Shown: positions 40,826-63,271 of the stretch, one piece after another | Layout: every line of letters starts with the position of its first letter | How positions within the stretch are numbered: the first letter of the stretch is position 1 | From: Ptychodera flava | Lineage: Eukaryota | Direction: 5' to 3' | DNA length: 64,000 nucleotides | Assembly (NCBI RefSeq): GCF_041260155.1 | Contig: NC_091939.1 | Location: 23,707,744 to 23,771,743 of the forward strand | Made by a program: the position numbers and the translations under genes | Notes under the pieces: model-generated | What the model was told of the DNA's origin: nothing | The model's input: only the letters and a program-made list of their open reading frames with translations | Databases searched by the model: none

Positions 40826-41051
40826 ATGGACGTGCATAGTATAGATTCAACTAATCCCTTGTCACCACGGGCAAACGCCTTCAGCATCGCCTCCCTCATC
40901 TCACCAATCTCGCAGCGCTCTCTCTCCGAGTCGTCCCTGTGCAACGCGGCCGCCGCCTCTGCCAACAGGAAAGTCAGCGGCTCCTTCAACGAGGACTCGG
41001 TCGATTCCTGGGGAAGCCCGACACCGATGCTAAGCGGCAAAGACATGGAAG
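40826..41051 (+). CDS. Tbx1: T-box transcription factor Tbx1/10-like, coding exon 1 (N-terminal region, begins MDVHSIDSTNPLSPRANAF...)
   Basis: ATG at 40826 is the first in-frame ATG after an in-frame TAG at 40811-40813. The frame stays open for 75 codons to a donor AAG|GTTGGT (GT at 41052-41053), ending in phase 1. That phase matches the acceptor of exon 2. The N-terminal region is Ser/Ala-rich as in Tbx1 proteins. Assignment as exon 1 rests on phase compatibility and proximity, not on homology. Confidence 0.6.
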
Positions 41052-41879
41052 GTTGGTAGTGAATGGGGCAGTGCTCTAAAGTTGTTGTTTCCCCTTAAGT
41101 GCAAAGCCTATTGTCGGCTCAAGAGACCCGTAGAAAGACATATAAAAACAACGAGCTACATGTGTTTGGATATCGGTAGGCACTCGTAGAAATATGAAAA
41201 AATATATTACGCCGAGTGTTTATTTCGAACTGATTTCGATATTTCCCCTGGACGTAACACGGAAATATTTATCAATCAACTGTCTTGGTTTACTCGGACA
41301 CGCCGGTATTAGCAACACTGGCAATGCATTTGAAATCCTTCATACAACACAACCATGCCTCAATAGCCACACAAAACAAACGTTTCGACACCGTCTATCG
41401 CAGCTATACCGGCCGCTCCTTCGCAAAAAAAACCATAAAATTTTAAACCTGCCGATTTTGGTTCTGTTAATCCATAGGTGGGCTCCATGTCCTAATTGTA
41501 TAATTCATATTTACCGATTATGTGTCTGAGATAGGCACGGCTGTAACCCATCGGAAAAGGTTAAAGTTTGCACTGATAATGGCGTGTCTGGGATGTCAGT
41601 TTTAAGTCATGTGGTTGGCTGAGCTGAATTTCGACCTACTTTTCAGCAATCCAAAATGTAATTCAAAATATCGATAATTTTAATCACGTCTCAAAATTTC
41701 CACGAACAAGTGTTCTAAATTTCGGACGGTGAAGTCCACGCTGTTTTGAAGCCCTAAGGCCGGATTGACATCGCGTTGTGATGTTTCAAAATCTGCTGTA
41801 AGTTCAGCAAAGTGCGTGTAACTAACACAGTCTGTTCCGGGGTTTGATTTTTTTTTGGTATCTGGTCTTGTCTTCTCAG

Positions 41880-42183
41880 TCACCAGTCATAACGGTAAGT
41901 GTGGTTCGGAGAGCGGAGAGAGCTTCTGCGACAATTCCTCGGATAAGTTTTTGAATAGCCCCGACAGCGGAGACATGGGCACCAAGGAGAGGGACGGGGA
42001 GGACGCCGAGATTAACACGGAGAACGCCGAGGAGACGGAAAAGGAGACTGTTCGCAAGCCAAAGGTGGACACCAGACCCCTGAGTGACAAAGTCAGATAT
42101 GTCGAAGTACAGTTAGAAATGAAACCGCTCTGGGATGAATTCCATTCATTGGGAACGGAGATGATCGTAACCAAGAGTGGAAG
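41880..42183 (+). CDS. Tbx1: Tbx1/10-like coding exon 2 (acidic linker plus start of T-box: ...[31 protein letters not shown])
   Basis: Acceptor tcttctcag| at 41878-41879 and donor AG|GTAAGA (GT at 42184-42185). The translation ends [25 protein letters not shown](R). This closely matches the vertebrate Tbx1 start of the T-box, [27 protein letters not shown]. The phase-2 end joins exon 3 to give the conserved SGRRMFPTF. Confidence 0.85.
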
Positions 42184-45100
42184 GTAAGATTGAACACTTA
42201 TTTATTCGGTGGAATTTAATAAAATATATGAAAATGCATTCGGTCATACTGATTTCAAATTTACTCCTTTAAAAAATACACACACTTGAAACTGTTGTTC
42301 TTCGTGGACAAGTGCTACATATTCATTGCAATCGGAAACGTGGCATTTTTCGAAATTGAGTACTTCACGATAGGAAAGGGGTTTTCGTTGTCGCTTTAAA
42401 GAAGCAATATAAGTCGACTTCTATCTCTGAACGTCCACCGTGCCATCCAGCTGAACGGTTACCACGAAGTGCGCGTATTTATTTAATATTTACACGGCAG
42501 ACCAGCGGATGTTCTCCGTATCCTTGAGTTTATGTTCGCCGGTAAGGGGTAAACTGCTGGGGCGGAGAACTCGGGCGGTAGCGATCAGGGGGTGATAATT
42601 TATCCATTTCATTAGTCCATACCAGTTAATTACCGCGATAATGAGACTGTTGAAATATGTGATGACAGTGTATGGCCAGTGGGGTGGATATTCCGCTGAG
42701 GAGTGTGGCTGGACAAGCGATTGTCCTGTCGTTCGCTCTGTTAACCATAAATTCAACACGTTTTGTTCGATGACACTGGTCTGTCCTCGTAGCATGACAA
42801 AAAGTATCAGCGGAGGTTTTAAAACCTGCTTTTCATCTTATTTTTTTCCAAACTTGACAACTACATATCAAGGAATACGACCACACAACCAGTGGCGTTT
42901 TTATCGCCTCATGGTCCAGCTATTCCGCACAAAGCCGACCCAATCACCACCAGCTGATGCCTGCATGGCTAACCAACTCGAAGGGTCTGTCAAAAAATCT
43001 GTCGCTCTTTTTCCCAATGTCAATTTCCCACAGCGTGAAATTGACACGAACATCTCCCATGGTTATGAAAGACAACACAGTGACATTTTACAACTCGGCG
43101 TGACTTATTGCCGTGAGTTCCATATAGATAATAGAGCGTCGTCGACTTGAGCCGAAGTCATAAACATGAATCTGGGTAAACATTCCAGTTGCACCCATAA
43201 CAGAAACTCTGAGACCCCAGTTTTCAACTCGATTCTGACGCCATGCCCCGTTTAATTTTTACCCTATTATAAAATAAAATTAGAAAGAAAATATCATGAA
43301 TACTGATACTGCTCTGAGACGAAATTCGCAGTTTTAAGTAATCTAAAATGCCTAACTTTTCACTAGAATTATTGGTCTTTCACGTATTTTTTCTATCGTG
43401 CAGCGGTCGACTTGTTGTCGCGGTACGTGTGCTTCAATTCTATACAGACTCATGAAAATTACTAGAATACTTAGGTGAGAGTGCGGGAAGGAATTTGTTC
43501 TCGGGGCTTATACCTTCACTTCCAGACTATAGCCTTCTCTGGAAGAATCTCAACAACGCCGTTCGGTAGAATGCAGTTTTTGTCTCGGAATATGCAACGC
43601 AATACCGGCCCGCGCGTATCCACTTTCGCAGTAATCACTCAAGTTTTTCACTTGCTTCGCACTTTTGTGAAAAAAGAGTGTTAGGTTTTCATATCATGGT
43701 CTGTGTTATGGAACCTCGCTTTAGTTGCCTTGCAGTACCAGTTTTGAATAGGTCTCATCGCCGGTTTGTTTTTTGTTGTTCACTCAACTGTTTAGGACAG
43801 CACAAACTTTCAGATATTAGTCAAATCTTCTTTTTTGCTGTTTTACATATTTATTCCTTCCTTGGACCGTGCAGGCAATGTTAAACTTTTTTGTAAATTG
43901 TTGAAAAAGTCTAAAAACAATTTCGAGTCTCTAGCATATGCGCTTAGACTGCCTGTGTCTGTATTCTGATCAATACTGTATGCTCGATCGGTCACACCGT
44001 GCAGCCTCTATGCATTCCTCGATGTCATAGTAGACATGCAGCGCGACCGGTACGCGGCCCCTCCGACATGCTAAAATACAGACAGTTCATGCCGTAACAG
44101 ACAGAGAGTATCTCAGAAATGATAACGGCGCTTCTTTGAAAGTTTTGAAAGTATCAGGCGCTCAGAAACACCATACGGAAGGCAGGGAAGGGACTAATGA
44201 TGGTGTGGACAGAATCTTAAGTACCCCTCGATCACAACAACGTCCTAAAGACGGGCCCGTACAAAGACAGGTAAACACGCTGGCGCTCTAATTGAAAATC
44301 ATTGAGGTCTGGAGTCAAGAATTCAAACCCTAACGCGAGACCGTGTAAAACCAGAAACCAACAGACGTCGACAGCAAACACACCGAGAGCCGAGTACCCA
44401 AACCACAGCCAGTTCCCAATTGGAAAATGTTTAGATACATTCTACCCAACAAAAGACGTTTAGGGCATGGCAAAGAAACGCGAACCAGTGAAGGAATTTT
44501 GAAATGTTTGTGGAAGTACATCGCAAATTTGTTTTAGGGAATTATTTTTAGTATGAAACTTACATGGTAAATGTTTGATGGTTTGATTGTTACTGTGTCA
44601 AAGGCAAAGATTGCATTCTTGCCAATTTCTATTTGTTCTGCCATAAAAAGGCCATAAAGGTGTCAGAATTATTAGAAATATATCTGATCTACACCGCTTG
44701 GTACAGGACACCAATTCTACACGTGCTCTATTTACTAAGCCGTGATGCCACAGCGCGTTATTGGATGGATTTTATTAGATATCCTTTATGAGATAGTGCG
44801 TCGAAAACTGTGTATGTTCTTCCCCGCCAAACTCGGGCGGGGGGTGGGGGTGTCAGTTTTACACGAACTGCAGTAATTTTGTGTTGTGTTTTTTCCACAA
44901 AAGAACGTAAGTTTAGAATGATATTCGAAAAAAAAATTCGGGAAAGATCCATGCGGTATATGGGATGGTGTGCACGATATCGTCCTCGGCGGCGGAGCAA
45001 TGTAGACTTGCAGGGGACCGCTGTTGTGTGTTTTCGTTTACATAGGCAATGCGGTGTCAAGTGGATAGCTAAATTACACCTCGGCAAAGTTAATACCTTC

Positions 45101-47476
45101 AGGGGATGGGTCTCAAAAGTACATCCGATGATGCAATTACAAATATCAGCACACAGGTCTGCGTGTTTTTGAACAAGGCATGTCTGAATGACTTCAAAAA
45201 ACGAGAACATAATATCGCTGAATTGGGGGACTATCACGCCGCACTAACTGTTATAAATCTACTCTGCTAGTTAAACTAAGTGGTCCTCCAATTTCAATGA
45301 ATCTTCAACACCATCGGCTGTCATCAGAACGCCGTGTGTTATGAGGTTTAGGTACGACCGCCGTCACAGGGCGTACTTATTAATTAATTTATTTGACGTA
45401 TTCATGGTTCTGACCGAGGCACATCGCCGAACGGTGCAAAGACGATCACTGAAACACAAGATACAACGGTCGGTAGGCGGTGGTAAATCAGGCAGACACC
45501 GGGGACCTCGCGCTTAATTAAAAGAGCTGTGTTTCAAAACCGACAGACGATAATTTTTAAAAAAGATATAAAAAGTGATAACAGTTGACATAATTCGCGC
45601 GCTACATAAAGCTGCACGGCGGAAACTGTCTCATCGTTGAAAAATCCGATGGTTTCATGTAGAGTCAAAGAACAGTAGAAAGACGTTAGATAGCTCGTAA
45701 AATGAATCACCCAGACGGTGTTGAATTGTGTTTGATCTAAATCATTCTCGCTTATCGACAGGGGATGGCATTGAACTGTCGTGTTAATGGCTCTATAAAT
45801 GAGACCACAGGTCGGCAGTATAGTGTGACGATTTAATGGCGGTTGCGCTGGTCGGGGGTTCTCTACTCAAGCCGGGTCTGCGTTTTCTCATTGCGCTCAA
45901 ACTTGACTCCTCTACCCTCTCCGCTCCGAGGGAGAGCTACTCGGCAATGTTCGGGTTATCTTCGATCAATCTGTCGTGTGACAGGTTGACATTTGAAGGT
46001 GATAATGACCGCGTCTTTGCTCTGAGCACACACACCATAGAGCTATATCAGGCACAGCGCCCAGACGATAGGGTAATGAACATTCCTGAAGCCCCGAACA
46101 GTTTGTTTTGTTCCCCATGGCAGGATGTGGAGTAAAAATCTAAAATTCGTAATTGCACTTCCGTAACTTGATGGGTACAAGCCGCATATAACTTTTACAG
46201 TATTTAAAATTATGCCGTTTACTGTTTATAATGTATCTTTCTAAAACCATAAATAGTGTCACAAATGACTCGCATCAATGCATTACGTATACGTCTATCA
46301 TTTTCGTACATGTACATCTGACACTCTCATCAAATATTATAAGTCTAGGCTCATAACATTCAATTTATTATTCAGTTTTTTAAAGTTTCACTTTTCCCCA
46401 CAGCCCGTCATGATATTTAAAGCAACATTCTTAAAAACTAGAAAAATTACTTCAGTAAATTTAATTGAGAAGACAACAAAGTTTTAAAAAAACATGAATG
46501 TCATTTCAAACTTGGATAAGAGTCTACGGTTTTGTTTTTGTTTTTGTTTTTAAATATATGTGACTAGTCGAGTGTTCCTTTAAGACATGATTAAATGAAA
46601 AATAAAGCATGCTCGAACAATTTCTTTGATATCATAACAAATTGAGCACCTAGCTATTGCTTGAAAGGGTTTTTTTCTCGAATTACAGCCGGTCATCAAG
46701 TGTTCACATTAACGGGGATTGACATAAGCTGACCGTTTTCGTCCAGAGATGGTGTTTCTTTTTCAGACTCGATAGCCCAGTAAAAGGGAGTCTGGTGATA
46801 TCGATGCCCTCGGTACTAGTTTAGTTCCAAGAAAAAGTGTTTTCTGTCCAAATTGAAGTAGGCCAATAAAAAACGATATATATCGAATCTAGTTCTAGTA
46901 AGATGCTACAACCAAACTTGAAAACTTAGATAAACTACTGTACGGTAGCATGGCGTTTGCACTGATATTCTTACTTAATCTGCGCACATATCAACAATGT
47001 GAACTTAGTTGTAATACCTGTTTCAAAAGTATGCTTTTTAGTACATAAATGTTTGTACTATTAATTTTTTCTGGTTTGTACTATTAATTTGTTCTTTGAC
47101 TGCTCCTGGAGAAAGTTAAAACACCATGAAAAGTCTGAAAATTCCTGTGGACCTGACTGCAAGATGTAACGCATGGGACACCATCAGATACAGATCTGAT
47201 GTAGGTTTCAGTGAAAAAAGTAGACCTCACTTTGCAACGGTCCCACCCTTGTCTGTCAGAAACACGAAATAATGCTTGGACATCGGTAGAAGGAAAGCAA
47301 AGAAGCGTTCCCAGGTTACCATGACATTATTCAATTTACAGAACCGCATCTGATTAGTCTTGGGTTTGACGTGTCGCCCTGGACTGAAGCAGCGCATCAA
47401 GGGGCTGAAAATGAAAGCCGCGTGCGAAGAATAAATCAAACAACATGTTGTTTAATTCTCATTGAAAAACTTTATG

Positions 47477-47480
<4 letters not shown>

Positions 47481-47537
<57 letters not shown>
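47481..47537. repeat. (AT)n ~28 units
   Basis: Read directly. Confidence 0.95.
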
Positions 47538-47540
<3 letters not shown>

Positions 47541-50021
47541 TAGATTTTTCGAGATATTCCAAAATTATTCGAGCAAGTTATGGTACTAATAGCGTCACAG
47601 ACTTAAAATATATCTGAGTAGTATATTTTCTTCTTCCCTACCAAAACCACTTTGTTGAAGTTGTGTAAATTTTTGACTTCCTCAAAGCACTATTACACCT
47701 GGCAACGTTTTTAACACTTTCAACCCCTCTGACATCACGACAAAACGGTAGTTTAAAATTTCCACTCTCCGCTTGGTCCCCCTTTCTATTCGTGAACTGA
47801 GCCTGAATGGGCGACAGGAATTTGTTGTTTTTGACGGTTGTGGAACGGAACGAAGTAATTCTGGACAGCGCACAAAGCAAATAGTTGAGCATTTCAAGTC
47901 TGATGAGTCGTGTGGCCAGCCTCTGTTCTGAGGAGTCCTTTTTGACGGGTGGTCGCACAAGCCATGTCATGCCGGCAATCCCGAATTGAATACTAACTCT
48001 ATGGAGACAACAAACACATTCGTCATGCTTGTGACGACTTCTAAAATTTCACTCCACGAGAAATTTTCTCTCTCTTTTTTGCTGTTAAAAATAACCACAA
48101 TTCAGTTTCTTTTTTCATATCTTTTGGTGCATGTTACATCAATCAGACTGGGTTAAAAGCGAATACTTTTGCAGGCATATGTATGTAAAGCGAAAATTAG
48201 AAAAAGAGGTGTGTTTACGAGGGTTTTGAAAAGAGAAAAATTGTCACTTTCATGTTTACAAAATCACACAAAATAGTCAACAGACTGAAAGTCTTGCCTT
48301 CTCCAGATGTATGGCACTGCCTCTTTCACGTTTTCTTCGCTCAAACGAAGAAAAACGAACTATATTTACTGGTCTTAAAAGCGAACAATAGAAAACGTGA
48401 TCTTTATTTAGAAACACTCCCGACTTTTTTTGGGCAACGCTTTCCAAAGAAAACAGTCTTAGTAGCGTGTTTTCAGCATATGAATATTTAAGAGGATTTT
48501 TTTCTGTCGAATCCATAAGCCGAAGAATATAAAACGTGCGTTTTGGTGGGGTTTTCCCCTTTATTCTAGTCTGTAAAACGCCTGCTATGGTTCTTCTTTG
48601 TCAAGATTTGACTGTGAAAGTAGCCTGTGTTTGGAATAACAGATCAATTGTCGATTGAATTTGGGACCCAATTAATAATTCTGTCGTCATGAGCTGTATT
48701 CGTCCTCTCTTATAAAAGTTGCTTTGCTTTCTAGACCTGATGGCGATGGCAAAAAAAGGTCTGCGTGATGATTGCTGAGTCAAGATACATATAGTTTCTG
48801 TTCCCTTGTCCATTGTAAATTGAAATATCAAACAACGAGCATACACGAGAACGCATTGTCTACTTTCGCTCACTCGTCACCGGTCCTTCAAACCCGGACA
48901 ATTAAACCACTCTGAGGGCCCGTTTCACTGAGTGCCGAGAACGACAGACTGATGGGAGCTCGGACCAACAAGTTTGTTTTAGATTGTGGGCCTAATTGCC
49001 GGAGTGCCATCTATCTTTCAGTAATTGCATGTTGAAGTGTCGTCTCCCTTCGGTTGTTAGAATTACCCAAGCTGTTTATCCCATTAGTGTCCACATTTGT
49101 CCTTTCTCTCCGTTTTCTCTCTCACCCCGTTTCATCTGGTCTGTCCAGATCTAGAATTCACAGCCTCGTTCCCCTGCAATATCAACTGTCGTCACATCTA
49201 TCACAATCCGATGAGTGACTGAATTTTGCTAAGAAAAATTGGACGCGTTCGATCCTGGGACCGCTGTCGGACTCTCCTTCATGTGATGTTGGGGGGAGGG
49301 CACAAAACACGCCCAAAATGGCTTACACCTACTCATTACAAGAGGAGGGGGCTAAGGTTTCAGGTATCACATATTGGATCACTCTCGATAGAGGAGGTCA
49401 ACCTCCCCTCAAGTGTTTTCATCTCACTCGTGACGTGAACGAGATGAAATTATTCAACTTCCAAACTGCCGGCGGGGACAACAGCAAAACCTTTATTCTT
49501 TGATGCACTTGGTTAAATTTTTCAAGTCTGCCCTTACGCGCAGTTTTTTTCAAGAAAAACAACACAGTATGAATTGGTCAGTCGATATACTAAAAATATC
49601 ACGATCAACTTTCTGTACACATATTTCTATTCGTCACCTGACTTGAAATCTCTCAAAATATGTATATTATACGTGATATATATTTCACGGTATTAAATTG
49701 TAGAAGTTTTGTCTTCTTGATGGAGTCTTTCATGATTATGTTTTGTTTCAGCCCATGTAAGTTTACCTCTAGGGCACAGCCATTGTGATGGATGTAAAAT
49801 ATTGCTAAGTTTATGGTCATGTTGCATTTCAAAAGTGAGTCAAATTATCGAATACTACTTTCAGCAAAAAAAACCGTGGCCAATCGACTTGAATGATTGT
49901 TATTCAATTCTATCTTTAAGTTACAAAAAGCTCATACGGCCACGGTAGATATCTAAAAAACTTGTTAAAGGGTAAAACGTTTCCTTCTTTATACTTTTCT
50001 GACTCTGATCACACATTACAG

Positions 50022-50103
50022 ACGAATGTTTCCGACTTTTCAAGTCAAGCTGCGTGGGATGGATCCCATGGCGGAGTACATCCTAATGATGGACTTTGTT
50101 CCG
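50022..50103 (+). CDS. Tbx1: Tbx1/10-like coding exon 3 (T-box: [28 protein letters not shown])
   Basis: Acceptor acacattacag| (AG at 50020-50021) and donor CCG|GTGAGT (GT at 50104-50105). The translation is nearly identical to vertebrate Tbx1 ([28 protein letters not shown]). It runs phase 2 in, phase 0 out. Confidence 0.9.
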
Positions 50104-50154: not shown

Positions 50155-50292
50155 ATACATACATACATACATACATACATACATACATACATACATACAT
50201 ACATACATACATACATACATACATACATACATACATACATACATACATACATACATACATACATACATACATACATACATACATACATACAT
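50155..50292. repeat. (CATA)n ~34 units, beginning ~50 bp downstream of the Tbx1 exon 3 donor
   Basis: Read directly. This is the source of the poly-CMYV artefact ORFs on both strands. Confidence 0.95.
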
Positions 50293-50465: not shown

Positions 50466-50572
<107 letters not shown>

Positions 50573-50871: not shown

Positions 50872-51063
50872 GTGGACAACAAGCGATATCGATACGCTTT
50901 TCACAGTTCTAGTTGGCTGGTTGCTGGCCAGGGCGATCCGGAGATGCCCGGACGTATTCATGTACACCCCGACTCCCCAGCTCGCGGTTCAATATGGATG
51001 AAACAAATCGTATCCTTCGATAAACTCAAACTAACCAACAATCTATTGGACGATAACGGACAT
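50872..51063 (+). CDS. Tbx1: Tbx1/10-like coding exon 4 (T-box: [63 protein letters not shown])
   Basis: Acceptor cctttgcag| (AG at 50870-50871) and donor CAT|GTAAGT (GT at 51064-51065). The 64 codons match the Tbx1 T-box ([22 protein letters not shown]...[21 protein letters not shown]) almost residue for residue. Confidence 0.92.
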
Positions 51064-52421: not shown

Positions 52422-52585
<164 letters not shown>

Positions 52586-54301
52586 AACAGTTACGTCATA
52601 AGTATCCATAGATTGAGGGAACTATCGAATATCATGGAATTTCCTCAGTATTTAAGATAAGTAAGACGTTGACTAAACAGCCAGAATCGTCTACAATTAC
52701 ATGGTTACTGTATACAGAATGCTTATCAAACGTCAACTGTGAAGTTTCATCGACTAGACGCGGCAGACCATAGAAACATTGTATACCTTGAAATGTACAT
52801 GACATTGTATATTATCCATGTATATTTCGCGAGTACAATCAATTGACGTTTCTTCCTATGAAATTACACAATTTTGCTGTTTCACATTTTAATTAAAAGA
52901 AAGTTGTTCGTCGACACTAAATATCCCAAATTAACTATTCGCCGGGCATTCAGAAACTCATTTTCTACTCAAACGGGCAGATAACGATAATTTTATTTCA
53001 AAAAGCACTCTTGAGTCAGTGCATAAACAACCTAAAATTGGTTGACACATTAAAGTATTTTATAAAGAGAAGCCCGTCCCTATGAAAAGCAATTTCAACG
53101 ACGCCACTTCGTTCTCGCCAAGCTTATTTTTTCCCTACAATTTAAAATTTCTCCGTAAACCCCTTTTCTGGAATTTCAATTTCTCGTTCCTTAAACATTG
53201 GGGATCATTTCGCCATTAGCAGCCATTGTCGAGCCACTTTACAACCGCAATAATCGTCCTTCGCAAATTTGTCTAAATATTTTCACAAGAGCTTTGAAAT
53301 TCTTCAGTTGTCACACCATCAACCCTCCTCCCAGGGCGGATTAGATCCATGAGTTGTTTTAAACAGCGAAATTAGATCAAAAGTCGAGTTCAAAAGCATC
53401 AACTTGATACCTCGTTCCTCTTCGCATGGCTTGCGATGCATTGAGAACGCTGGCTCGGAGAAGGTATCTCTCTCTCTCGGCGCGTTCGACATTCAAGCCT
53501 CTTTAGCCACGGACAATGCTGAAGTGATACGTTGCAACATAGTCGTGTGGTATAACTGTTCGTTTAAGTGACGTTATAGTTTTGACAGAAGTAACGACAT
53601 GATGACATTATCAAGACATATAACTTCCCCTTCCGTCCCGGATCCGCTGTGATTGTGGTCTACTTGATGTTGATCACTGCCAACTTGAAGGCAAATACTG
53701 TAACACGTCATAGTACGACCATAAGTCAGCCCAAGCTTGCACTTGAATAACAACCCAACCAATACTTTATTTTCTTAGTCTAGCATATGGTTAGGGCATC
53801 CATCACAAGCTTCCTATTCTTTGAATTTGCTTTTTTCATACCTTTTCCGAATTTCGGTCACGAGCTCGAGAAAATGAAATGGTAGCCCAAAAATGTTTCA
53901 AGCAATACTATCTATTTACCCAGGAAATAATGTATCCCCATGTCTTGCCTATAACGGGAGTAACATCGTTATTTCGAAATTTCACAAACGTCATTCATTA
54001 TATCCGAAAGTAAAATATCAGAGAAAGAGATGAAAATATACTTACATTCGTTCTGAAAGGAAGGGGCTGTACCTCTAGAATTGTATGCCGTGCTATTGAC
54101 GTATTTCGATTCAACCATCTTTCACACGCCCGCTTCCAATTACCGCCGTATCACCCATTATTTGCGATCCTGCTTAACCTTTTTTGATATCATTTTCTTC
54201 CTCGTCCCCAGGGGCTTGGTCATGTGATCTTTACTCTTTTTTGTCAACTGCGAAAGAATAACATCAAACTTCTTCCCTTTTTTTATTATGTTGACCTGCA
54301 G

Positions 54302-54457
54302 ATAATACTGAACTCAATGCACCGATACCAGCCTCGCTTTCACGTCGTACACGTGAGCGGGAGAAAGGATCCCGAGAACGCGGCCGAGAAGGAATTCCAG
54401 ACGTTCATCTTCACAGAAACGCAGTTCACTGCCGTTACTGCCTATCAAAATCACAGG
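54302..54457 (+). CDS. Tbx1: Tbx1/10-like coding exon 5 (T-box: [52 protein letters not shown])
   Basis: Acceptor ttgacctgcag| (AG at 54300-54301) and donor AGG|GTAAGG (GT at 54458-54459). The 52 codons match Tbx1 ([52 protein letters not shown]). Confidence 0.92.
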
Positions 54458-57400
54458 GTAAGGACCAAGTTATGTTTTCTCCTCCGTAGTCACTTCCAAT
54501 ATTGATCCGTGCTATCCTTTTCACTTTTTCTGGATGCCTTTGTTATCGCCCCATACTGAAATAAACTGAAAGCGGCGCTATCGTCTTGTAACGACGCCGT
54601 ACTGTTAAAAAGATGTTTTTATCTGACTTTCATATATTAAGGAAGTTTTGCAAATTAAGACTTTTCGCTTTTCCTTTTATACAAATGGTAAAGTTATATG
54701 CTGCGAAAAAGTGAGCACGACGTTAGCAATCACCTCAAATAACTTAAATGGTCAAATTTGACAAAAGGTAATTGATGTAAATATTAAAGTCTTGAATGCC
54801 GGTTGCTTTGAGAATTTGTCGCTTCAGAAATACTTGTATCTCCCAAAATATGGTGAGAGCTCGAGGCATGACGCCATTCATGATATACGATAATGGGTCT
54901 GGTGAAGGGCATCAAATCTGTGAAAACAAGAAGCTGAGTTCCGACAAGTTCAAATTTTCGATATTTAAGGTAGATTGCTCCTCGGGGACAGATATTCAAA
55001 CTCTCAAAGTTACACTTCTCTGATCAGTCACTTGTGATGGCTCATTTTAAAACTTATGGAGTAACAATAACTTTTAGCGTTTAATTTTTTCGAAAATCGA
55101 AAATTCTATTTTTCTCCCATAGAGTTAACACAGGGATGGCGGCCATGTTGAATATCAAATATCGGTAATTGTTAGGCAATTTGTTTCTCTAGTACCAAAC
55201 TTTGCACCGTGCGTGATCCATGAATTTTATTCTTCATATGGTAAGAAAATGGTTGAAAGTTTCATTAAGGATTTTCAGCAAATTTGAAGTTTGAATCTTT
55301 CACTTTTGAGACTCGCATAACCTTAACATAGATAGGCGATTCGCTAAATCTGACAGATTACTATCCTAGGAGGCTTTCTCAAAGATAGAATTTTGTCAAA
55401 GGTAGGTCGATGTTACTTGTAAGACATAACAAGATTAATTTTTCCTTTAAACACTTTGTACAGTAAACACTGAAGGTGACACTAGCAGATCACTCAGATC
55501 AAAATAAGTGCCGTTTATTAACGTGACGGTTTCAATATATCCATCGCCATTTTGACTTCTCGAAATTTAATGATAAAGTTATATCTATAAAATGACGTGT
55601 AAATCTTCTCTTGTATGTATAAAAATACTGACGATGAAGCGAGGAAATAGCGTTTAAGGCAGTGAATCGTGAAAATAACCTTCGCTTTAAAATTTTCCGT
55701 ATGAAAGCGAGTTCTTTCAAAGAATTTGGCGATCAGTGACAGACGGATGAGAATCAGTATTAAGTTCCTTCCACTCTTACCTGGAGATGATCTTTGTTAG
55801 TGACTATTTTTGTATAATAATTGATCTTGTCAGATATAAATTTGGAAAAGTTTTTTATCCGGTAATGACACTTTATAGTATAACTGAATCGTCCAGAGTT
55901 TCAAGACATTTCAATATCGTCAAAATAACCATGTGTGGGCATTAGTGTGTGCTGCCGGACAGTGATGACTCCCCCCCGAGAAAATGTGGTGTATAGATTT
56001 GTGAAGATAATGTTTTGAGCGAGGCGCTCTTCGGTTCGTTTTCTCGATGCTGCCTGGAACAAATATTTCGCAAATTCAAAATCATATGAATTTGGGAGAA
56101 CGAAATCAGTAAGTTGAGAATTTGTGTTCGGTTGATAAATTAGCATTGATGAAGCTGACTCAATGGTGCAGGATCATCAATACCAATGTAATACCCAAAA
56201 TGGTTTCACTCGAGCGATATCGTTTCGTGCTAGAGGGTAAAACAAAATACATCTACCATTTACGTACGAGCCTTTCATAATACAAGCAATGTGACTCAGA
56301 CGCGTCCGTGCAAACGCGGACTCTCTCCTACCCGAGCAACCAAGAGAAAAATACTCTATAAGTGAGAAAATTCGGGTATAGATTCGATATAAAAGTACAA
56401 ACGTGAATTTGAAAGTTAATCTTTCTCGATAAACCTGACGTCTTTCCAGGATAGCTCTTAGCTTTTGATGAAACCTTCATGCTCATTTAAACCGTCGTAC
56501 ACCTGTGATGAAAGTGAGAACATGCAGACCATCACCATCATGTAGATTTGTAGTTTTAGAGGAATTTGTTGCTATTGTTTAATCTTACTAAAAGGGAATA
56601 CATCGCATCTGAGTTCGCGCCTTCATGTCTACTTATGTCTTCCCCTCATCGTTGTAGCCAATGCGACCGTATGCAAGCCCCCCTCGTGGTTTTGTTTCTT
56701 GACAGTCACAAAGAAGTTTTCTTGGACCCGATGACATTTTTTCGACTCATTCAGTTTCAGGTTAGGGTATATTGCTACCTCCTCGTGCATCGTGTTAGCA
56801 GTTTGGCTAAATGCCGTGATCAAACTTTACCCAAGTACTTCATATGGAAATATTGCTGTATGCCTGGTCCACCATATTGAAGCAGGTAGGGGAGGGGGCG
56901 GACTTCCGAAATACAACATTGGCACAGGGCGTTACGCGCGGTCCCGAAGCAAACTCGTTTTATGTTCAACCGTAAACACACAATGAGGAAAAGCTCTTCA
57001 AACATTTGTATAAGGGTCCAGCTCTACTGCTCCATTGAAAACCGAGTGAATGTGTGTTTTTCACTGAAAAGGAGAGTGCAAACGGAAAAGCGACGCCATT
57101 TTACTCTCCGTCCATACAGCCCACTTCAGCGTGTCACGAGTGGCCTTTGTAACAAGCGGCATTGATGCTCGGAAACAAGCATGGTTATTCATCATGCATT
57201 ATCTCCCAGATAAGGGTAGAAAATTTGGCGGTGGTTGTGGAGAATTCTCATCACTGTCTAGGTATATACTTGGTGGCCTAGCTTTGCGAACATTCCCCGT
57301 TCACACAAACTATCACTTGCAATTATACTCTGCATTCAATGGAATACCGTTATCATTAAAATATAGAAATAATTTGCATCCTAGTATAGCTTTTGTATGT

Positions 57401-60400
57401 GCGAGACCTTAAAAGCATCATTGACCTAACGGCCCCCGGGTAATCTTTATTAGAAGTGTCCACAGTTTTTAAAACTGTATTGGAATAGTGAAGTAACATC
57501 TGCGAGTCAAGGGGCGCTCTTCGAACTTTGTGGAATCCCATAGAAGAAAGAATTAGACCGGCTAAGTGGTTGGGGTAATGCGCGATGTTAATGGAAGCAC
57601 ATGATGAAGTCCTGTTTGGCGTGAGATTAGAGCGATGAGTGTTCTAATTATACTTTCGCCCATTCGGAATGACCTGTTCAAACACGACACTTGTTTCATA
57701 TGTGTAACCACTACTATCGCTGGTTGTGTTGTTGGTTTTGTTTTATAAAAGCCCGAAAACTTGGAGTACACTCACGTGTATCTGATGGAGATACCTTGAT
57801 CAGCAATGCGATGTACTTGTCATGGCAACCAAATTATTGCGGCTTGTAAGTCCTCCAGTCGATGGCGACGTACATGCCACTCACTGGCAGAATATCGCGC
57901 GATCGAGAGCTCATTGAAAAAGCGCGACACTTCGACCGATATTTTAGAAGTAAGGACTCTCATTTTCCGTCAATATTGGAGTCAGTTACACGTATTTTCT
58001 GCTAACCACTTACCGTATAAGTGGTTGCTCTCCACCGTGGGCACTGTTCTGATGAACATTTCCGTATGGAAACCTCATGTTGTGTGAATCACGCCCATCG
58101 AATGAAACTTTCAAGCACCTCTTTCATTTCTGCTCACAGCACGATTTGGCTACTTACATGAACAATAGCAAAGCTTACCATTTTGTTTTAAATTGTGATG
58201 CTTATTAAGTGTTCTTTCTTAGTGTTAGACCAATTTCCATCATATATGGTCTTCACAAAGTAGTTTTATATCAACACTGTGTAAGGACAGTCATATTTAT
58301 TGTCATCAACAGCACGAACACGAGACTGTTTTTATCTCTCTGTGTTTCACAACTTCAACGGTAAATCTGAATTCTTTTACTTTTCTAGTTCCCAAAAATT
58401 AACACGATCGCTCGTTTTGGAAGTTTTATTAAAAGCCTTCCCTCAACCGTAACAAAATTTAACATCACATAGGTTGGAAATAATCGATCGCGTACGGCTT
58501 GTTGTGTTCGAACCCACCGTCGTATGGTGGTGCATTACGACAATGGTACATCTTGGGGCAAAATACACTTTACCCGATTTCGAATGTGGACGATACTGCT
58601 TGTTCATACAAAAATAATACATTTAGACACATGTCGCCAATTTGTTTTTCAGAATATAATTTCGTTGTACCGCAAAGCAAAGTACTATTGTCCAGATCTC
58701 TTTAGACGCTAACCAAACAATGAGTGTCTGTTGCCGAATGGTTGCTGTCCTCCACCGCGGGCCTATTTTAGCTGGCCCGATGATAGATAGTGTGTCATTC
58801 CGTCCCATCGATTACAGTACATTAGTGCGTCTAAAGGATTTCAATTGAGCGGTGAAAATTGGTTTTCACATTGATGTCCAATTTTCCAATTCGATTCCGA
58901 AGCACAAAGCGCATTCCGATCCTCCGGATGGATCGCCGTGCCTCGAAAAGTCGAGCCGGGGGGATAGCATCTTGTCTCGTTGGTGTATGAAATATATGGA
59001 AGCGTCTGAGGTGTTTTTTTTATTTATTCTTTCGTTTCTGATGCAGTCGCATATGCTCATGACAGGATAATTAACGCGAATGTCAGCTTTTTATAGAGGG
59101 TACCATGACGCATGAAAAATGAAAGAGCAAATAGGAGCGACCAAAAGACCTTCTGTTAAATCTCACTATGCATGGCAGTTGAAAAGTAAAACAAGAGGTG
59201 GGATGCTCTCTCCGCTGTGTACAAAACAATTACCAAACGGTGGTACTAAAAAGCACCCATCCATTTAGATGGTTAAGATAGCATTCATGTGGCGGGACTT
59301 AACTCTCATTGCAAACACTCTCGGACAAACACTCTCTCTCTCTCCGTGTCACAATCGACGCGATGCTCCATCACAAAATGATCGAGCGAGAGAGAGACGA
59401 GGGAGAGAGCCAGAGCGAAAAGAAACGCGCTGTTTACCTTCGAGGCTTCTTTGGAGCCATTGCTACATTGAGAAAAAGCCGATACTCATTCATGGAGTCG
59501 AGCAACAATAACAGAACCTCAAGAAGTGCGAGGCCTTTTTTCCCAGTGACAGTCGGAGACCCCTCCGCGGCTACTTGAAGCCCGTGCAAAGTTCCGGGCC
59601 TTTGTACGCCGTTATGCGATTTGTTTACTAACTTTTTAATGTGTAAACATCGCTTAGAGTGAACGGGAGCTTTCTAACGCTGACAGCCGCCGCAGACTAG
59701 TGTCTGCCTTACCCCCAACACTCAGAAACATACAGTTATAATCCGCCATATTATGGTTGAAAGTAGTGGGTGGGCCGATTGTTTTAAGTGCATTGCTCGA
59801 CACAAAGGTATGCCAGCTTAGCAGGGTATGAGTGGATTGCTATGTCATGACTTTTTATTCTTAAGCCGGCGACACTTTCGCTGATTAACGATGGTCATTG
59901 TCCGAAACTTTCAGATCGCTGTGTGTACACTGCGTACAGGGACGTGTTTACTTAGTGTGGTCAAGCCAGCCATATAGTAAAATAAAAAAATTCAGGGCAA
60001 ATTCAGGGCAAATTAAGTTTATGATGTATGTTTTGACGAAAGAATGGGGAAGTTTTAAAAAAACAAGAGGTTATGTGAATCCGATTTTGCTATTCATAGA
60101 GTTTTGTTCCGTTGTTTCGATCGACTGACGCTAAATATTTAAGACATGTCATGTTTGAAAAACACGGATCCGGCCGTTGACACGCAATTCTTCTCGTAGG
60201 TTACTTCCTAACATCCCAGGATGACCGTGCCCGTCGCAAACAACCACGCTGTCTCCACAACAAATGGGAAGACAGCTTCGCTTAGTCGAAGGCTTACGGA
60301 GGACACGATCCTCCCCTCTCCCTCCCAACCGAAGGGACCGTGCTCTGAACTGAATGAATACACACGCCGCATATTTTAAATTCATGTGTACATATAAAGT

Positions 60401-61156
60401 TGGGTTTGTGCCAACCTATGTTATTTTCCCCGTTGCGCCATGTTCATTTCATGAAAGCATTTCCATGTTCTACATCAAACGATATTCACCATATAGTGGG
60501 CAGTTGATCACCCGAACCAGATCACATCCCCTGCACATAGCGCACAATGCTAGTATAGTATGTCTATCACATGAAGTAAAAAACAAATTATTTTCTTAAT
60601 GTACTTTAGGGCCATCATAGTAATTATGTTCAACGCTTATTCTTTGTGACATGCGCATTACTGACGGCGCAGTTACTCTAGAATTATTTTCCTTGGCATT
60701 TTATAGGAATGTGTCAATTACAGTCAGAGTACAACAATAGAATGTTAAGTAGATTTTAAATTACAAAATTTATAGTACACCCATATTCACCGCGTTCAAC
60801 TCGTATCAGGCAATAATACCTTCAAAACGAGAATAAAAACAAAAGTGTTATTCCGAAATATTTTGCAAAAGTACACGATGGCTATGTTGTTGCCAATTTT
60901 TCATTTGATTTATTTTTAACTTACTGTCACGAGTGTTGTCTACAATAATCCAACTTCTAGCCTATTTTCAGAAAAAATTTCGTTTTACATATACTGTGTA
61001 TTTGATAAAACTTTTCAACCATGTGCGGAGATAACTTCTCGTGGGTCAGTCACAGGCCACCATTTTAACAAGAACTGTGCATCACTATAACGTCAATTCT
61101 GGTCGGCCTATATACCTCCGACACTGACCCGTTCAGATATCTGTTCTTTCTTGCAG

Positions 61157-61224
61157 ATAACCCAGTTGAAAATCGCAAGTAATCCATTTGCGAAGGGTTT
61201 CCGAGACAGTGACCCCGACGACTG
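61157..61224 (+). CDS. Tbx1: Tbx1/10-like coding exon 6 (end of T-box: [22 protein letters not shown](W))
   Basis: Acceptor ctgttctttcttgcag| (AG at 61155-61156) and donor ACTG|GTAAGT (GT at 61225-61226). The translation [17 protein letters not shown] is identical to vertebrate Tbx1 over 17 residues. The exon ends in phase 2. Confidence 0.9.
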
Positions 61225-61761
61225 GTAAGTAAACCTGACACGGCCGCTTTCAACCGTCTAACCGTCTAAGGAAATAGATATGAATAACCCTGATGTGTTC
61301 TGGGAAATTGTCTGTAATTTCTGCTGATTGTAGACACGGGACCTCTGTCATCATACCAGTAACCTGTCCTATTCTTCAGGTGATTGTCGCCGTCAGGGTG
61401 ATGATTACTTTGTAATTTCTTTCAGTGTAATTTTCCAACTTACTGCAATTCGCACCTCAGGCTGGTAAATGTTTAAAGCGGCAACGGATTAGCCAGGCAC
61501 GGAAATAAGTTTTAACAGTATGCCGGTAAACTATAAAGCGTAAACTCTACATAATATTATTATTAGACTACGAATAAGCTATTTACCGAGAGATTAGAGA
61601 TACTACGCCATTTACCGCATGGGTAGATAAGGGTACATATTTCAAGCCCCAAATATAAACTGTTTTTACTGTTACAACATAATTTTGAACCATAATTAAC
61701 AAGACCAATCATATACAACTCGTTCAAATGAGCAACCAATCAGATCTTACTTGTCAAGAAA

Positions 61762-61866
<105 letters not shown>

Positions 61867-62002
61867 TGTACATTCCTATGAATCGAACTTGTAATACAGT
61901 AATTGTCTAGATTTTCTGCGGTCCTTCAACGATAACTAACGTATATTTTCCATACAATCACAGCTTGGTTGAAATATTGCCACACGGGCAGCCCGGCGCC
62001 AG

Positions 62003-62091
62003 GCCACGAAATCATCATCGTCCAAGTTCACTTCAAATCGTCGGCGTTGCTAGAGCAAGGACGCAGTCGCAGTGCAATCGTGAGGACCAAG
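62003..62091 (+). CDS. Tbx1: Tbx1/10-like coding exon 7 ((W)PRNHHRPSSLQIVGVARARTQSQCNREDQ); an alternative in-frame acceptor 39 nt upstream at 61964
   Basis: I chose the acceptor ggcgccag| at 62001-62002 because it restores the conserved Tbx1 motif D(W)PRNH(R)P. An upstream AG (caatcacag|, exon start 61964) has the better polypyrimidine tract. It is also in frame and would insert 13 aa. Donor CAAG|GTGAGA (GT at 62092-62093), phase 1 out. Read-through of this donor would hit a stop after 5 codons. Confidence 0.55.
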
Positions 62092-62810
62092 GTGAGAAAC
62101 AGTAAATAAAAGCGTTAATGATGCGCAGTCTCCATTTTATCACGTGACGGTAAATGCTGATGATCGTTGGAATATGTTTTCACGTTTTCCTAGTCTTCAA
62201 ACCATGTACAAGTTACATGTAAGGTGCTTGGTGCCCTCATTGGAAAATGGAAAGTGAAGATGACTTTTTAAATTGTTCCCGCCTCTCTGTATTAAATGTA
62301 TGCTGATTTTTAAAGAAGTTTTGTGTTTAGTTGTATTGTTTTTTTGTACAGAGTGGTCATTCACATGTAGCACTCGAAATTCGCTGACTTAGGCAGGATA
62401 GTTTAGAGCGTTTGCTTACTTTCCAAAGATCACGTTCTGCAGTGAGATAAGCCATTACACAAGTTTAAATGGACAATTGTATTTTATCTAATATTTTGTC
62501 ACAACGTTCTGTGAAAAAAAATGCATTTGTTATTCTCCTCCCTAAATGCATGTTGACGTGCATAGTACTAGCATTTCCAACTCAGTACAATGTTTTTTAA
62601 TTGAGAAATGATTGTAGTCCGGACTGAAATACACACACACAGAGGCTGTAATAACAGGGTGAAAGCCTGGCATTACAACAATAATAATTTTTTTGGGAGG
62701 GGGTAGATTGGAAAAAAATGAATTTGATAGAAGAACAAAACTATTGGACAATACAGATCAAACGTTACAATTATAAAGCTTTAAAGGAAATCATGTTTTT
62801 ATGATTGCAG

Positions 62811-63271
62811 AGAGACAAGAAGAAGAAAGGAGTCGGACTAATTCGAGTGTGTCGACGTCATCAACACTGTCACCAATGTCAAGTGCAATGCTCGCCAGCC
62901 ACAGCAACCACATGAATCAAAGCCCGCCATCTTTCTCGATGCACGCCCCACAGCCACCTCCCCCGCCGCCGCCGCCGCCTCCGCCCCCTCCCCCGATGCA
63001 ACTGAACACGGACTTTGCCGCCGGCCTGAACATGCAAATCACCCAGAACAGCTCGTGCGCCGAGCAGGGCTTCGCGCCCTACCGTCACGACAACCAATGC
63101 AATTTTGGACCCATATCCAGCTGTTACCTGAGGTCGCCCTCCACCAGCCACCGCACCACGCCCTACCCGCAAAATATATCGGAGTATCGCAATAACCCGT
63201 ACAGGAGTGCGGCATACAATGGACTAGGTTACTTCGGCCAGACTCAGTCCTTGGAGTACGGCACCCGATGA
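62811..63271 (+). CDS. Tbx1: Tbx1/10-like terminal coding exon 8 (Ser/Pro-rich C-terminal region with a run of 15 prolines; stop TGA at 63269-63271)
   Basis: Acceptor ttttatgattgcag| (AG at 62809-62810) is phase-compatible with exon 7 (g+ag gives Glu). A 153-codon open frame (track ORF 62801..63271) ends at TGA. The full 8-exon model sums to 1578 nt, which is 526 codons including the stop, with no frame conflict. Low-complexity Ser/Pro-rich C-terminal regions are usual in T-box factors. Confidence 0.6.

What the first reader, a model, noticed from the sequence alone, without database searches (positions are those of the whole stretch)
40826..63271. Intact Tbx1/Tbx10-family T-box gene: 8-exon, 525-aa model spanning 22.4 kb
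Exons 2-6 encode a T-box that aligns almost position by position with vertebrate Tbx1. Examples are [87 protein letters not shown] and [28 protein letters not shown]. All five junctions inside the T-box fall at canonical GT-AG sites with matching phases. The whole model is 1578 nt and reads through without a frame conflict. Exon 1 (N-terminal) and exon 8 (C-terminal) are placed by open reading frame and phase only. These lineage-specific parts of the protein could not be checked by homology.
Basis: partly seen in the sequence, partly recalled or inferred. Interest (0 to 1): 0.6.

Follow-up and report, generated by a model that had tools for sequence, protein, structure and literature searches.

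The report
Hemichordate Tbx1/10 T-box gene, intact

Summary
All seven introns are GT..AG. Pfam T-box matches full length (E=2.8e-79).

It is Tbx1/10. The T-box is 81-82% identical to vertebrate TBX1, 64% to human TBX20 and 56-58% to TBX15/18. A tree places it inside the Tbx1/10 clade (bootstrap 90%). The two closest database proteins, Glandiceps (73%) and Saccoglossus (70%), are labelled "TBX20", but they fall in the same Tbx1/10 clade, so those labels are misnomers. The window comes from an enteropneust hemichordate absent from the protein database.

Two corrections:
- **Ends.** Exons 1 and 8 are not lineage-specific. The N-terminal PLSPRANAFSIASLIS (eh1-like) and the C-terminal ...LEYGTR are conserved, which supports the start and stop codons.
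- **Exon 7.** Saccoglossus and amphioxus splice at the position equivalent to 61964, not 62003. The extra 13 codons (LVEILPHGQPGAR) evolve like coding sequence (pS 0.62, pN 0.03). The preferred model is therefore 538 aa. The 525-aa junction may still be a real alternative isoform, because sea-cucumber proteins carry it.

This is a new member of a known kind and of low interest. Side notes: conserved non-coding elements, including an intron-5 element with paired forkhead-type motifs.

The parts
40407..40825 (+). Conserved 5' flank (5'UTR and/or core promoter) directly upstream of the start codon
   Evidence: It aligns with the region upstream of the Saccoglossus ATG (window 40407-41150 = L001 9586-10314, E=2e-51). 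Near-identical blocks are visible. Synonymous sites in the coding sequence are saturated, so this conservation implies constraint. Transcript ends were not determined.
40826..41051 (+). Exon 1 coding part (aa 1-75 plus 1 nt), with ATG at 40826. Codons 11-26 (40856-40903) encode the eh1-like motif PLSPRANAFSIASLIS
   Evidence: There is an in-frame TAG 4 codons upstream. Residues P11-S26 are invariant or nearly so in hemichordate, echinoderm, amphioxus and Latimeria TBX1. The motif is present in 57 of the 120 top hits. The donor sequence GAAG|GTTGGTA is conserved in Saccoglossus. An alternative donor lies 4 nt downstream at 41055 and pairs in frame with an acceptor at 41887.
41880..42183 (+). 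Exon 2: acidic and serine-rich linker and the start of the T-box (the T-box begins at about 42107)
   Evidence: The acceptor is ttgtcttctcag| after a long pyrimidine tract and the donor is AAG|gtaaga. It matches Saccoglossus exon 2 by blastn and tblastn.
50022..50103 (+). Exon 3 (82 nt), T-box: [27 protein letters not shown]
   Evidence: The length (82 nt) and phase are the same as in Saccoglossus. Nucleotide identity is 81%.
50872..51063 (+). Exon 4 (192 nt), T-box
   Evidence: The length is the same as in Saccoglossus. Nucleotide identity is 84%, E=9e-57.
54302..54457 (+). Exon 5 (156 nt), T-box
   Evidence: The length is the same as in Saccoglossus (blastn).
61157..61224 (+). Exon 6 (68 nt): end of the T-box ([17 protein letters not shown] ends at 61207), then SDPDD plus TG of a split codon
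   Evidence: The acceptor and the phase-2 donor GACTG|gtaagt sit at the same positions in Saccoglossus and in amphioxus L003.
61964..62091 (+). Exon 7, preferred long form (128 nt; gives DDC-LVEILPHGQPGAR-PRNHHRPSSLQIVGV...).
   Evidence: The long-form acceptor position is shared with Saccoglossus (35153) and amphioxus (21507). The annotated Glandiceps protein also has the long junction. The 13 extra codons show pS 0.62 and pN 0.034, like the T-box. Similarity stops at the acceptor. The short junction is seen in sea-cucumber proteins and in vertebrates.
62811..63271 (+). Exon 8: C-terminal region with a 14-proline run (about 62954-62995), the conserved tail NSSCAEQGFAPYRHDNQ...RTTPYPQNISEYRNNPYR...LEYGTR, and the stop TGA at 63269-63271
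   Evidence: It aligns to the very last residue with Glandiceps and Saccoglossus (...LEYGTR). It resembles the vertebrate ...YEYGPR ending. Nucleotide identity to Saccoglossus is 71% over 316 nt. ATTAAA signals lie at 63504 and 63577.
59622..59696 (.). Conserved non-coding element in intron 5. Its core is TGTTTACTAACTTTTTAATGTGTAAACA, which is two inverted forkhead-type motifs
   Evidence: It is 82.7% identical over 75 nt to the syntenic intron of Saccoglossus (L001 33561-33635). The core is 27 of 28 identical. The paired motif occurs once in the window, against 0.05 expected, and once in L001 at the syntenic spot. It was not found in amphioxus L003. Function is inferred only.
47875..47912 (.). 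Weaker collinear conserved element in intron 2
   Evidence: It is 87% identical over 39 nt to L001 16824-16862, in the same intron (E=1e-4).

Best explanation
The region holds the single, intact Tbx1/10 orthologue of an enteropneust hemichordate. The species is closer to Glandiceps than to Saccoglossus and is not itself in the protein database searched.

The gene has eight coding exons over 22.4 kb. The preferred product is 538 aa, from exons 40826-41051, 41880-42183, 50022-50103, 50872-51063, 54302-54457, 61157-61224, 61964-62091 and 62811-63271.

How it works:
- **Shown by homology.** Residues 152-337 form a complete T-box DNA-binding domain, about 82% identical to human TBX1, whose T-box structure is solved. 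The protein is therefore a sequence-specific transcription factor of the T-box class.
- **Inferred.** The N-terminal FSIASLI motif is an engrailed-homology-1 (eh1)-type motif. In TBX15, TBX18 and C. elegans MLS-1 this kind of motif binds Groucho/TLE co-repressors, which would give the protein a direct repressor mode.
- **Inferred.** The conserved C-terminal tail corresponds to the C-terminal regulatory region of TBX1.
- **Inferred.** Expression is probably driven in part by the conserved 5' flank and the intronic conserved elements. One of these carries paired forkhead-type sites, reminiscent of Fox regulation of vertebrate Tbx1.
For: - **Model.** The model was rebuilt with correct phases and GT..AG introns.
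- **Domain.** Pfam T-box matches full length at E=2.8e-79.
- **Closest solved structure.** PDB TBX1 chain 4a04 scores 361 bits, against 248 bits for TBX3 and 247 for TBX5.
- **Database hits.** After two hemichordate proteins, the top 120 hits are echinoderm, amphioxus and vertebrate TBX1.
- **T-box identities.** Glandiceps 97.4%, Saccoglossus 94.8%, echinoderm 85-89%, vertebrate TBX1 81-82%, TBX20 64%, TBX15/18 56-58%.
- **Tree.** Tbx1/10 clade support is 90% and the hemichordate trio has 100%.
- **Gene structure.** The Saccoglossus gene has the same eight exons, and exons 3-6 have identical lengths.
- **Selection.** Across the whole coding sequence pN is 0.14 against pS 0.79. In the T-box pN is 0.037 against pS 0.82.
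- **Ends.** The N- and C-termini are conserved.
- **Exon 7 long form.**
- **Literature on eh1.** PMC1310626 and PMC3154951.
- **Literature on Fox regulation of Tbx1.** PMC3442180, citing Yamagishi 2003.
Against: - There is no transcript evidence for this species, so every junction rests on comparative and consensus arguments.
- The window keeps an in-frame AG|G at 62001-62002. It would give the vertebrate-like and holothurian-like DDW-PRNHH junction, so the relative use of the two exon-7 acceptors is unknown.
- The exon 1-2 junction has a second frame-preserving solution (donor 41055 plus acceptor 41887, giving DMEG-C-HNGK). It resembles the Saccoglossus annotation.
- Groucho binding, DNA-binding specificity and enhancer activity were not tested.
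- Published work reports that Saccoglossus Tbx1 expression is not associated with the pharyngeal endoderm or gill bars (PMC3564725; PMC4320481). The vertebrate pharyngeal role therefore cannot simply be transferred.
Confidence: 0.93

Rival explanations
1. The gene is the hemichordate orthologue of TBX20, as NCBI labels its two closest relatives, and not of Tbx1/10.
For: The two best database hits are named 'TBX20-like isoform X1' (Glandiceps) and 'TBX20' (Saccoglossus). The N-terminal LSPRANAFSIASLIS is 80% identical to human TBX20 LSSRANAFSIAALMS.
Against: The T-box is only 64% identical to human TBX20, against 81-82% to vertebrate TBX1. In the tree the window and both 'TBX20'-named proteins sit inside the Tbx1/10 clade (90%), while vertebrate, mollusc, arthropod and cnidarian TBX20 form a separate group. 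The N-terminal motif is not specific to TBX20: it occurs in 57 of 120 TBX1-type hits and in a related form in TBX15/18. The C-terminal tail matches TBX1.
Confidence: 0.02
2. The first reader's 525-aa model (exon 7 starting at 62003, junction DDW-PRNHH) is the main or only product, and 61964-62002 is intron.
For: The site is an in-frame AG|G that recreates the junction found in 103 of the 120 top hits (vertebrate TBX1). The same junction is in Apostichopus isoform X2 and in an uninterrupted 571-codon ORF on a 5.1-kb sequencing-run contig (L002).
Against: The 39 nt upstream are conserved as codons: 5 of the 6 codons that differ from Saccoglossus are synonymous, with pS 0.62 and pN 0.034. Similarity to Saccoglossus begins exactly at the 61964 acceptor. 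Saccoglossus and amphioxus genes splice at that position. Glandiceps, four of five echinoderm classes sampled and a marine transcript fragment (P0241) carry the long peptide. In Saccoglossus the downstream site would read TG+A, a stop codon. The upstream acceptor also has the better T-rich pyrimidine tract.
Confidence: 0.15
3. The locus is a decaying or non-functional duplicate (pseudogene) that merely retains T-box similarity.
For: None beyond the absence of transcript data. The gene sits in a repeat-rich, AT-rich region with long microsatellites inside its introns.
Against: The 538- or 525-codon frame is uninterrupted, all splice sites are canonical, and the start and stop are conserved. There is strong purifying selection. 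It is the only T-box locus in the window. The exon structure is identical to the single Saccoglossus gene. Non-coding elements are also conserved.
Confidence: 0.02

Closest known systems
Saccoglossus kowalevskii and Glandiceps talaboti Tbx1/10 orthologues (database proteins P0002 and P0001, labelled 'TBX20' and 'TBX20-like')
   Same: Both align over the full length, at 70-73% identity by BLASTP and 75-78% in the alignment. T-box identity is 95-97%. Saccoglossus has the same eight exons with the same phases in the T-box. The start motif, the ...LEYGTR end and the long exon-7 peptide are shared.
   Different: It is a different species, and no protein more than 73% identical was found in the database searched. 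The window has a 14-proline run and small indels in the linker regions. It keeps an in-frame alternative exon-7 acceptor that is a stop in Saccoglossus. The exon 1-2 junction differs by a few codons among the three species.
Vertebrate TBX1 (the human TBX1 T-box has a solved structure, PDB 4a04)
   Same: The T-box is 81-82% identical. The PRNH(H)RP motif follows the T-box. The C-terminal RPTPYP...Y.YGPR-type tail is shared. Many non-mammalian TBX1 isoforms share the N-terminal PLSPKANAFSIASLIS.
   Different: Vertebrates use only the short DW-PRNHRP junction (103 of 120 hits). The regions outside the T-box are otherwise divergent. None of the placental TBX1 hits in the set matched the N-terminal motif pattern, and Copley 2005 reported no eh1 motif in human TBX1 or TBX10. 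Published Saccoglossus data indicate that Tbx1 is not deployed in the gill endoderm or gill bars as it is in chordates.
TBX20 / Drosophila H15-midline subfamily
   Same: It belongs to the same broader Tbx1 group. It shares a nearly identical N-terminal eh1-type motif.
   Different: The T-box is only 64% identical. Signature stretches differ, for example [10 protein letters not shown] here against RMFPTIRVSF in TBX20 (sequence used). It forms a separate clade.
TBX15/18/22 subfamily
   Same: It has an N-terminal eh1 motif that has been shown to bind Groucho/TLE (Farin 2007, as cited in PMC3154951). It belongs to the same broader group.
   Different: The T-box is 56-58% identical and it forms a separate clade.

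Membership tests
T-box transcription factors (Pfam PF00907) | A complete T-box DNA-binding domain | tested here: met
   PF00907 scores E=2.8e-79 (265.6 bits against a cut-off of 26). It covers residues 152-337 and profile positions 1-182 of 182.
Tbx1/10 subfamily | The T-box is more similar to TBX1/10 than to any other subfamily | tested here: met
   Identity is 81-82% to vertebrate TBX1, 64% to TBX20 and 56-58% to TBX15/18. Among solved structures TBX1 scores 361 bits, TBX3 248 and TBX5 247. The top 120 database hits are TBX1-type. A formal reverse search from human TBX1 against this genome was not possible.
Tbx1/10 subfamily | Phylogenetic placement inside the Tbx1/10 clade, apart from TBX20 and TBX15/18/22 | tested here: met
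   A neighbour-joining tree (BLOSUM62 distances, 193 columns, 200 bootstraps) gives the Tbx1/10 clade 90% support. The window is sister to Glandiceps, and the hemichordates are sister to echinoderm Tbx1. Mammalian TBX10 and TBX22 were not in the sample, and no maximum-likelihood tree was run.
Tbx1/10 subfamily | Shared motifs outside the T-box: PRNH(H)RP after the T-box, and the C-terminal RPTPYP...Y.YG.R end | tested here: met
   R345, N346, H348, R349, P350, R487, P490, Y491 and Y513 are invariant across hemichordate, echinoderm, amphioxus and Latimeria sequences.
Tbx1/10 subfamily | Conserved intron positions and phases with other Tbx1/10 genes | tested here: met
   There are eight exons, and exons 3-6 are 82, 192, 156 and 68 nt in both the window and Saccoglossus. 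The exon 6 and exon 7 boundaries are identical in amphioxus. Vertebrate loci could not be fetched.
TBX20 subfamily | The T-box groups with TBX20/H15/midline | tested here: not met
   Identity to human TBX20 (P0121) is 64%, and the gene falls outside the TBX20 group in the tree.
eh1-motif, Groucho/TLE-dependent repressors | An F-x-I-x-x-I/L-L/I core in a conserved position outside the DNA-binding domain | tested here: met
   FSIASLI lies at residues 19-25 and is invariant across deuterostome Tbx1/10 sequences. Equivalent motifs are present in TBX20 and TBX15/18. This is a pattern match only; it was not scored with Copley's eh1 HMM.
eh1-motif, Groucho/TLE-dependent repressors | Physical binding to Groucho/TLE and motif-dependent repression | not testable with these tools
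   This needs pull-down or two-hybrid and reporter assays. It has been shown for TBX15/18 and MLS-1 only (PMC3154951).

The most novel reading that the evidence does not exclude
Exon 7 carries an ancient pair of alternative 3' splice sites, 39 nt apart. They switch the residue after the T-box between Cys and Trp and add or remove a conserved 13-residue peptide (hVEhLPH..G.R). The long form is retained in hemichordates, most echinoderms and amphioxus. The short form is used in sea cucumbers and fixed in vertebrates. This genome keeps both sites intact.

Together with the N-terminal eh1 motif, which the 2005 eh1 survey reported as absent from human TBX1 and TBX10, and with an intronic element bearing paired forkhead-type sites, this would mean three things. 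Ancestral Tbx1/10 was a direct Groucho-recruiting factor. It had isoform-level regulation. It had a Fox input older than chordates.
Probability: 0.25. Interest if true: 0.4.

Novelty: new member of a known kind. Interest (0 to 1): 0.15.

Why it matters
Mainly as correct annotation. It gives a well-supported gene model for Tbx1/10 in another enteropneust. Tbx1/10 is the gene behind much of the 22q11/DiGeorge phenotype in humans and features in debates on the origin of the pharyngeal apparatus.

It also flags that the public names of the two closest hemichordate proteins ('TBX20') are wrong, and such labels can spread to new genomes.

The conserved N-terminal eh1-type motif, the alternative exon-7 junction and the hemichordate-conserved intronic elements are modest, testable leads on how ancestral Tbx1/10 was regulated and how it repressed targets. 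None of this is surprising to a specialist.

Tried and rejected
- **TBX20 identity.** It was suggested by the names of the two best hits. I rejected it after fetching real TBX20, TBX18 and TBX15 proteins and building identities and a tree.
- **Third protein search.** I used a 72-aa query spanning the short junction to look for hemichordate or echinoderm short-form isoforms. It returned only short fragments. The one useful hit was P0241, which has the long form.
- **Fetching other loci.** This failed for Glandiceps, Apostichopus, Patiria, Callorhinchus and Latimeria. Vertebrate intron positions and the Glandiceps exon-7 nucleotides were therefore not checked.
- **Amphioxus locus L003.** It never appeared in the Python sandbox, so I read it with pattern searches and get_sequence instead.
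- **Gillis et al. 2012.** This is the primary Saccoglossus Tbx1 expression paper and it is not held. I cite two papers that report its result.
- **Other features in the window.** There are no Rfam families and no tRNAs. No Pfam domain passed its curated cut-off in the eight large ORFs tested. There is no second T-box locus.
- **A literature search** for a hemichordate T-box inventory was unproductive.
- **Alternative exon-2 acceptors.** Acceptors other than 41880 and 41887 are out of frame, by reading.
- **Intron-5 conserved element in amphioxus.** The paired-motif pattern was not found in L003.
Full report
**What is there.** The window is eukaryotic: GC is about 0.40, with many microsatellites and no long ORFs. 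Using the splice sites visible, I rebuilt a model of eight exons that is exactly 1578 nt and 525 aa. Its exons are 40826-41051, 41880-42183, 50022-50103, 50872-51063, 54302-54457, 61157-61224, 62003-62091 and 62811-63271. Every intron is GT..AG, and intron sizes run from 719 to 7838 nt. Exon GC is 0.54 against 0.41 for the locus.

**Is it a T-box gene, and of which subfamily?** Pfam T-box matches end to end (E=2.8e-79, residues 152-337). Among solved structures the best match is human TBX1 (4a04, 361 bits), well ahead of TBX3 (248) and TBX5 (247).

In the 5.8-billion-protein database the best hits are Glandiceps talaboti (73% identity, 100% coverage) and Saccoglossus kowalevskii (70%, 100%). 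Echinoderm TBX1-like, amphioxus and more than 100 vertebrate TBX1 clusters follow.

To test this I retrieved genuine TBX20, TBX18 and TBX15 proteins. My remembered human TBX20 T-box turned out to be 100% identical to P0121. Over 193 T-box columns the window is:
- 97.4% identical to Glandiceps and 94.8% to Saccoglossus;
- 85-89% to echinoderm TBX1-like;
- 81-82% to vertebrate TBX1 and 79% to amphioxus;
- 72-75% to arthropod TBX1-like;
- 64% to human TBX20 and 56-58% to TBX15/18.

A neighbour-joining tree with 200 bootstraps places the window and both 'TBX20'-named hemichordate proteins (100%) inside the Tbx1/10 clade (90%), sister to echinoderm Tbx1. TBX20 and TBX15/18 form separate groups. The misnaming probably stems from the N-terminal motif. 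LSPRANAFSIASLIS here is 80% identical to LSSRANAFSIAALMS of human TBX20.

**The terminal exons.** They can be.
- PLSPRANAFSIASLIS (residues 11-26) is essentially invariant in hemichordates, echinoderms, amphioxus and a Latimeria TBX1 isoform. It is present in 57 of the 120 top hits, including fish, amphibian, reptile, bird and marsupial TBX1 isoforms.
- The ATG at 40826 aligns with the annotated starts of Glandiceps and Saccoglossus, and it is preceded by an in-frame TAG four codons upstream.
- The C-terminus aligns to the last residue with both hemichordates (...GYFGQTQSLEYGTR) and resembles the vertebrate ...YEYGPR end.

Both ends are therefore supported.

**Exon structure against Saccoglossus and amphioxus.** The Saccoglossus gene (locus L001, scaffold GL015955.1) has the same eight exons. 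Exons 3-6 have identical lengths of 82, 192, 156 and 68 nt.

Saccoglossus splices at ...tttttcacag|T TTA GTT GAA..., which is equivalent to window 61964, giving DDC-LVEILPHGQPGTR-PRNHH. Amphioxus exon 7 starts at the same position (...ctccctgcag|T GTT GTA GAG..., L003 21507), after an identical phase-2 exon-6 donor.

Several lines point the same way:
- Window-to-Saccoglossus similarity begins exactly at this acceptor.
- Within the 13 extra codons, five of the six differing codons are synonymous. pS is 0.62 and pN 0.034, matching the T-box at pS 0.82 and pN 0.037.
- The long peptide is also present in Glandiceps, crinoid, brittle-star, starfish and sea-urchin proteins, and in a marine transcript fragment, P0241.

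I therefore prefer exon 7 = 61964-62091 and a 538-aa product (model A).

The short junction is not fanciful, however. It is the only form in vertebrate TBX1 (103 of 120 hits). It also occurs as DDW-ARNHH in Apostichopus isoform X2 and in P0003, an uninterrupted 571-codon ORF on a 5.1-kb sequencing-run contig that looks like an assembled transcript. The window keeps an in-frame AG|G at the homologous spot, so the 525-aa protein may exist as an alternative isoform.

**Exon 1-2 junction.** It is consistent with the phase implied by Glandiceps (ME-D-HNGK). A second frame-preserving pair exists: donor 41055 (GTTG|GTAG, the site annotated in Saccoglossus) with acceptor 41887, giving DMEG-C-HNGK.

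**Functional state and mechanism.** The frame is open. Purifying selection is strong, with whole-CDS pN 0.14 against a saturated pS of 0.79. This is the only T-box locus in the window, so it is a working gene.
- Shown by homology: it encodes a T-box DNA-binding transcription factor.
- Inferred: the N-terminal FSIASLI is an eh1-type motif. Such motifs bind Groucho/TLE in TBX15/18 and in C. elegans MLS-1 (PMC3154951). Copley's 2005 survey found them in TBX18, TBX20 and TBX22 but reported none in human TBX1 or TBX10 (PMC1310626).
- The data here indicate that the motif is ancestral for Tbx1/10 and is retained outside placental mammals.
- For biological role, secondary sources report that Saccoglossus Tbx1 is not associated with pharyngeal endoderm or gill bars, unlike in chordates (PMC3564725; PMC4320481). 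A vertebrate-style pharyngeal role should not be assumed.

**Surroundings.** Synonymous sites are saturated between the window and Saccoglossus, yet several non-coding stretches align.
- About 420 nt upstream of the ATG and the first 100 nt or so of intron 1.
- A 75-nt element in intron 5 (59622-59696, 82.7% identity). Its core TGTTTACTAACTTTTTAATGTGTAAACA is 27 of 28 identical and consists of two inverted forkhead-type motifs. This arrangement occurs once in the window against 0.05 expected, and once in L001 at the syntenic place. It was not found in the amphioxus locus.
- A weaker element in intron 2.

Vertebrate Tbx1 is known to be Fox-regulated (Yamagishi 2003, as cited in PMC3442180). A link to the intron-5 element is speculation.

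The 40 kb upstream contains no ORF of 110 aa or more with a Pfam match above its curated cut-off, no Rfam family and no tRNA.

**Verdict.** This is a genuine, intact Tbx1/10 orthologue from an enteropneust hemichordate, and an ordinary, expected gene. It is a new member of a known kind, and interest is low.

Noticed in passing
window 59622-59696 (intron 5); L001 33561-33635: A conserved non-coding element with two inverted forkhead-type motifs (TGTTTAC ... GTAAACA, core 27 of 28 identical to Saccoglossus). It is followed by conserved AGTGAACG.GAGCTTTC and GCTGACAGC blocks. It could be an enhancer. The motif meaning comes from memory and was not tested.
   Followed up: partly
window 40407-40825 and 41052-41150: The roughly 420 nt upstream of the start codon and the first 100 nt or so of intron 1 align with Saccoglossus, even though synonymous sites are saturated. 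This is probably 5'UTR, promoter and splice or regulatory sequence.
   Followed up: partly
window 47875-47912 (intron 2); L001 16824-16862: A short collinear conserved block (87% over 39 nt, E=1e-4). A wider alignment suggests about 70 nt of similarity.
   Followed up: partly
database proteins P0001 (Glandiceps talaboti) and P0002 (Saccoglossus kowalevskii): Both are labelled TBX20(-like) by their source, but they fall in the Tbx1/10 clade with 95-97% T-box identity to this gene. The likely cause is automated naming driven by the shared N-terminal motif.
   Followed up: yes
window 40856-40903 (residues 11-26): An eh1-type motif, PLSPRANAFSIASLIS, sits in a Tbx1/10 protein. The same motif heads many non-mammalian vertebrate TBX1 isoforms and one marsupial isoform, but none of the placental hits. 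The 2005 eh1 survey reported none in human TBX1 or TBX10.
   Followed up: partly
window 41047-41060 and 41873-41890: Tandem donors 4 nt apart and tandem acceptors 7 nt apart give two frame-preserving exon 1-2 junctions: DME-VTS-HNGK or DMEG-C-HNGK. Glandiceps and Saccoglossus annotations each follow a different one.
   Followed up: partly
window about 62954-62995 (exon 8): A run of 14 proline codons. It is shorter and interrupted in Saccoglossus and largely absent in Glandiceps, so it is a variable low-complexity insert within an otherwise conserved C-terminal exon.
   Followed up: no
window 50155-50292, 52424-52583, 61765-61866: Long perfect microsatellites lie inside the gene's introns: (ATAC)34 starts about 50 nt after the exon-3 donor, (GA)80 is in intron 4, and (GA)51 ends about 100 nt before the exon-7 acceptor.
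   Followed up: no
window 24551-25679 and 28486-28933: Satellite-like tandem arrays with units of about 181-186 bp (3-4 copies, 81-87% matches) and 139 bp (3.2 copies), upstream of the gene. Their nature is unknown.
   Followed up: no
window 1-40400: There is no ORF of 110 aa or more with a Pfam match above its curated cut-off, no Rfam family, no tRNA and no similarity to the 10 kb upstream of the Saccoglossus gene. This looks like a gene-poor flank, although small-exon genes cannot be excluded. ORF 2726-3094 (-) looks coiled-coil-like but has only sub-threshold matches.
   Followed up: partly
L003 (Branchiostoma belcheri CM033046.1) 19020-21640: Amphioxus isoform X1 carries an extra 13-residue segment (RTLTFHGRNDSDS) between exons 6 and 7, giving DDW instead of DDC. 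Several echinoderm isoforms also differ in length exactly here, so the exon 6/7 boundary looks like a recurrent site of alternative splicing in Tbx1/10.
   Followed up: partly
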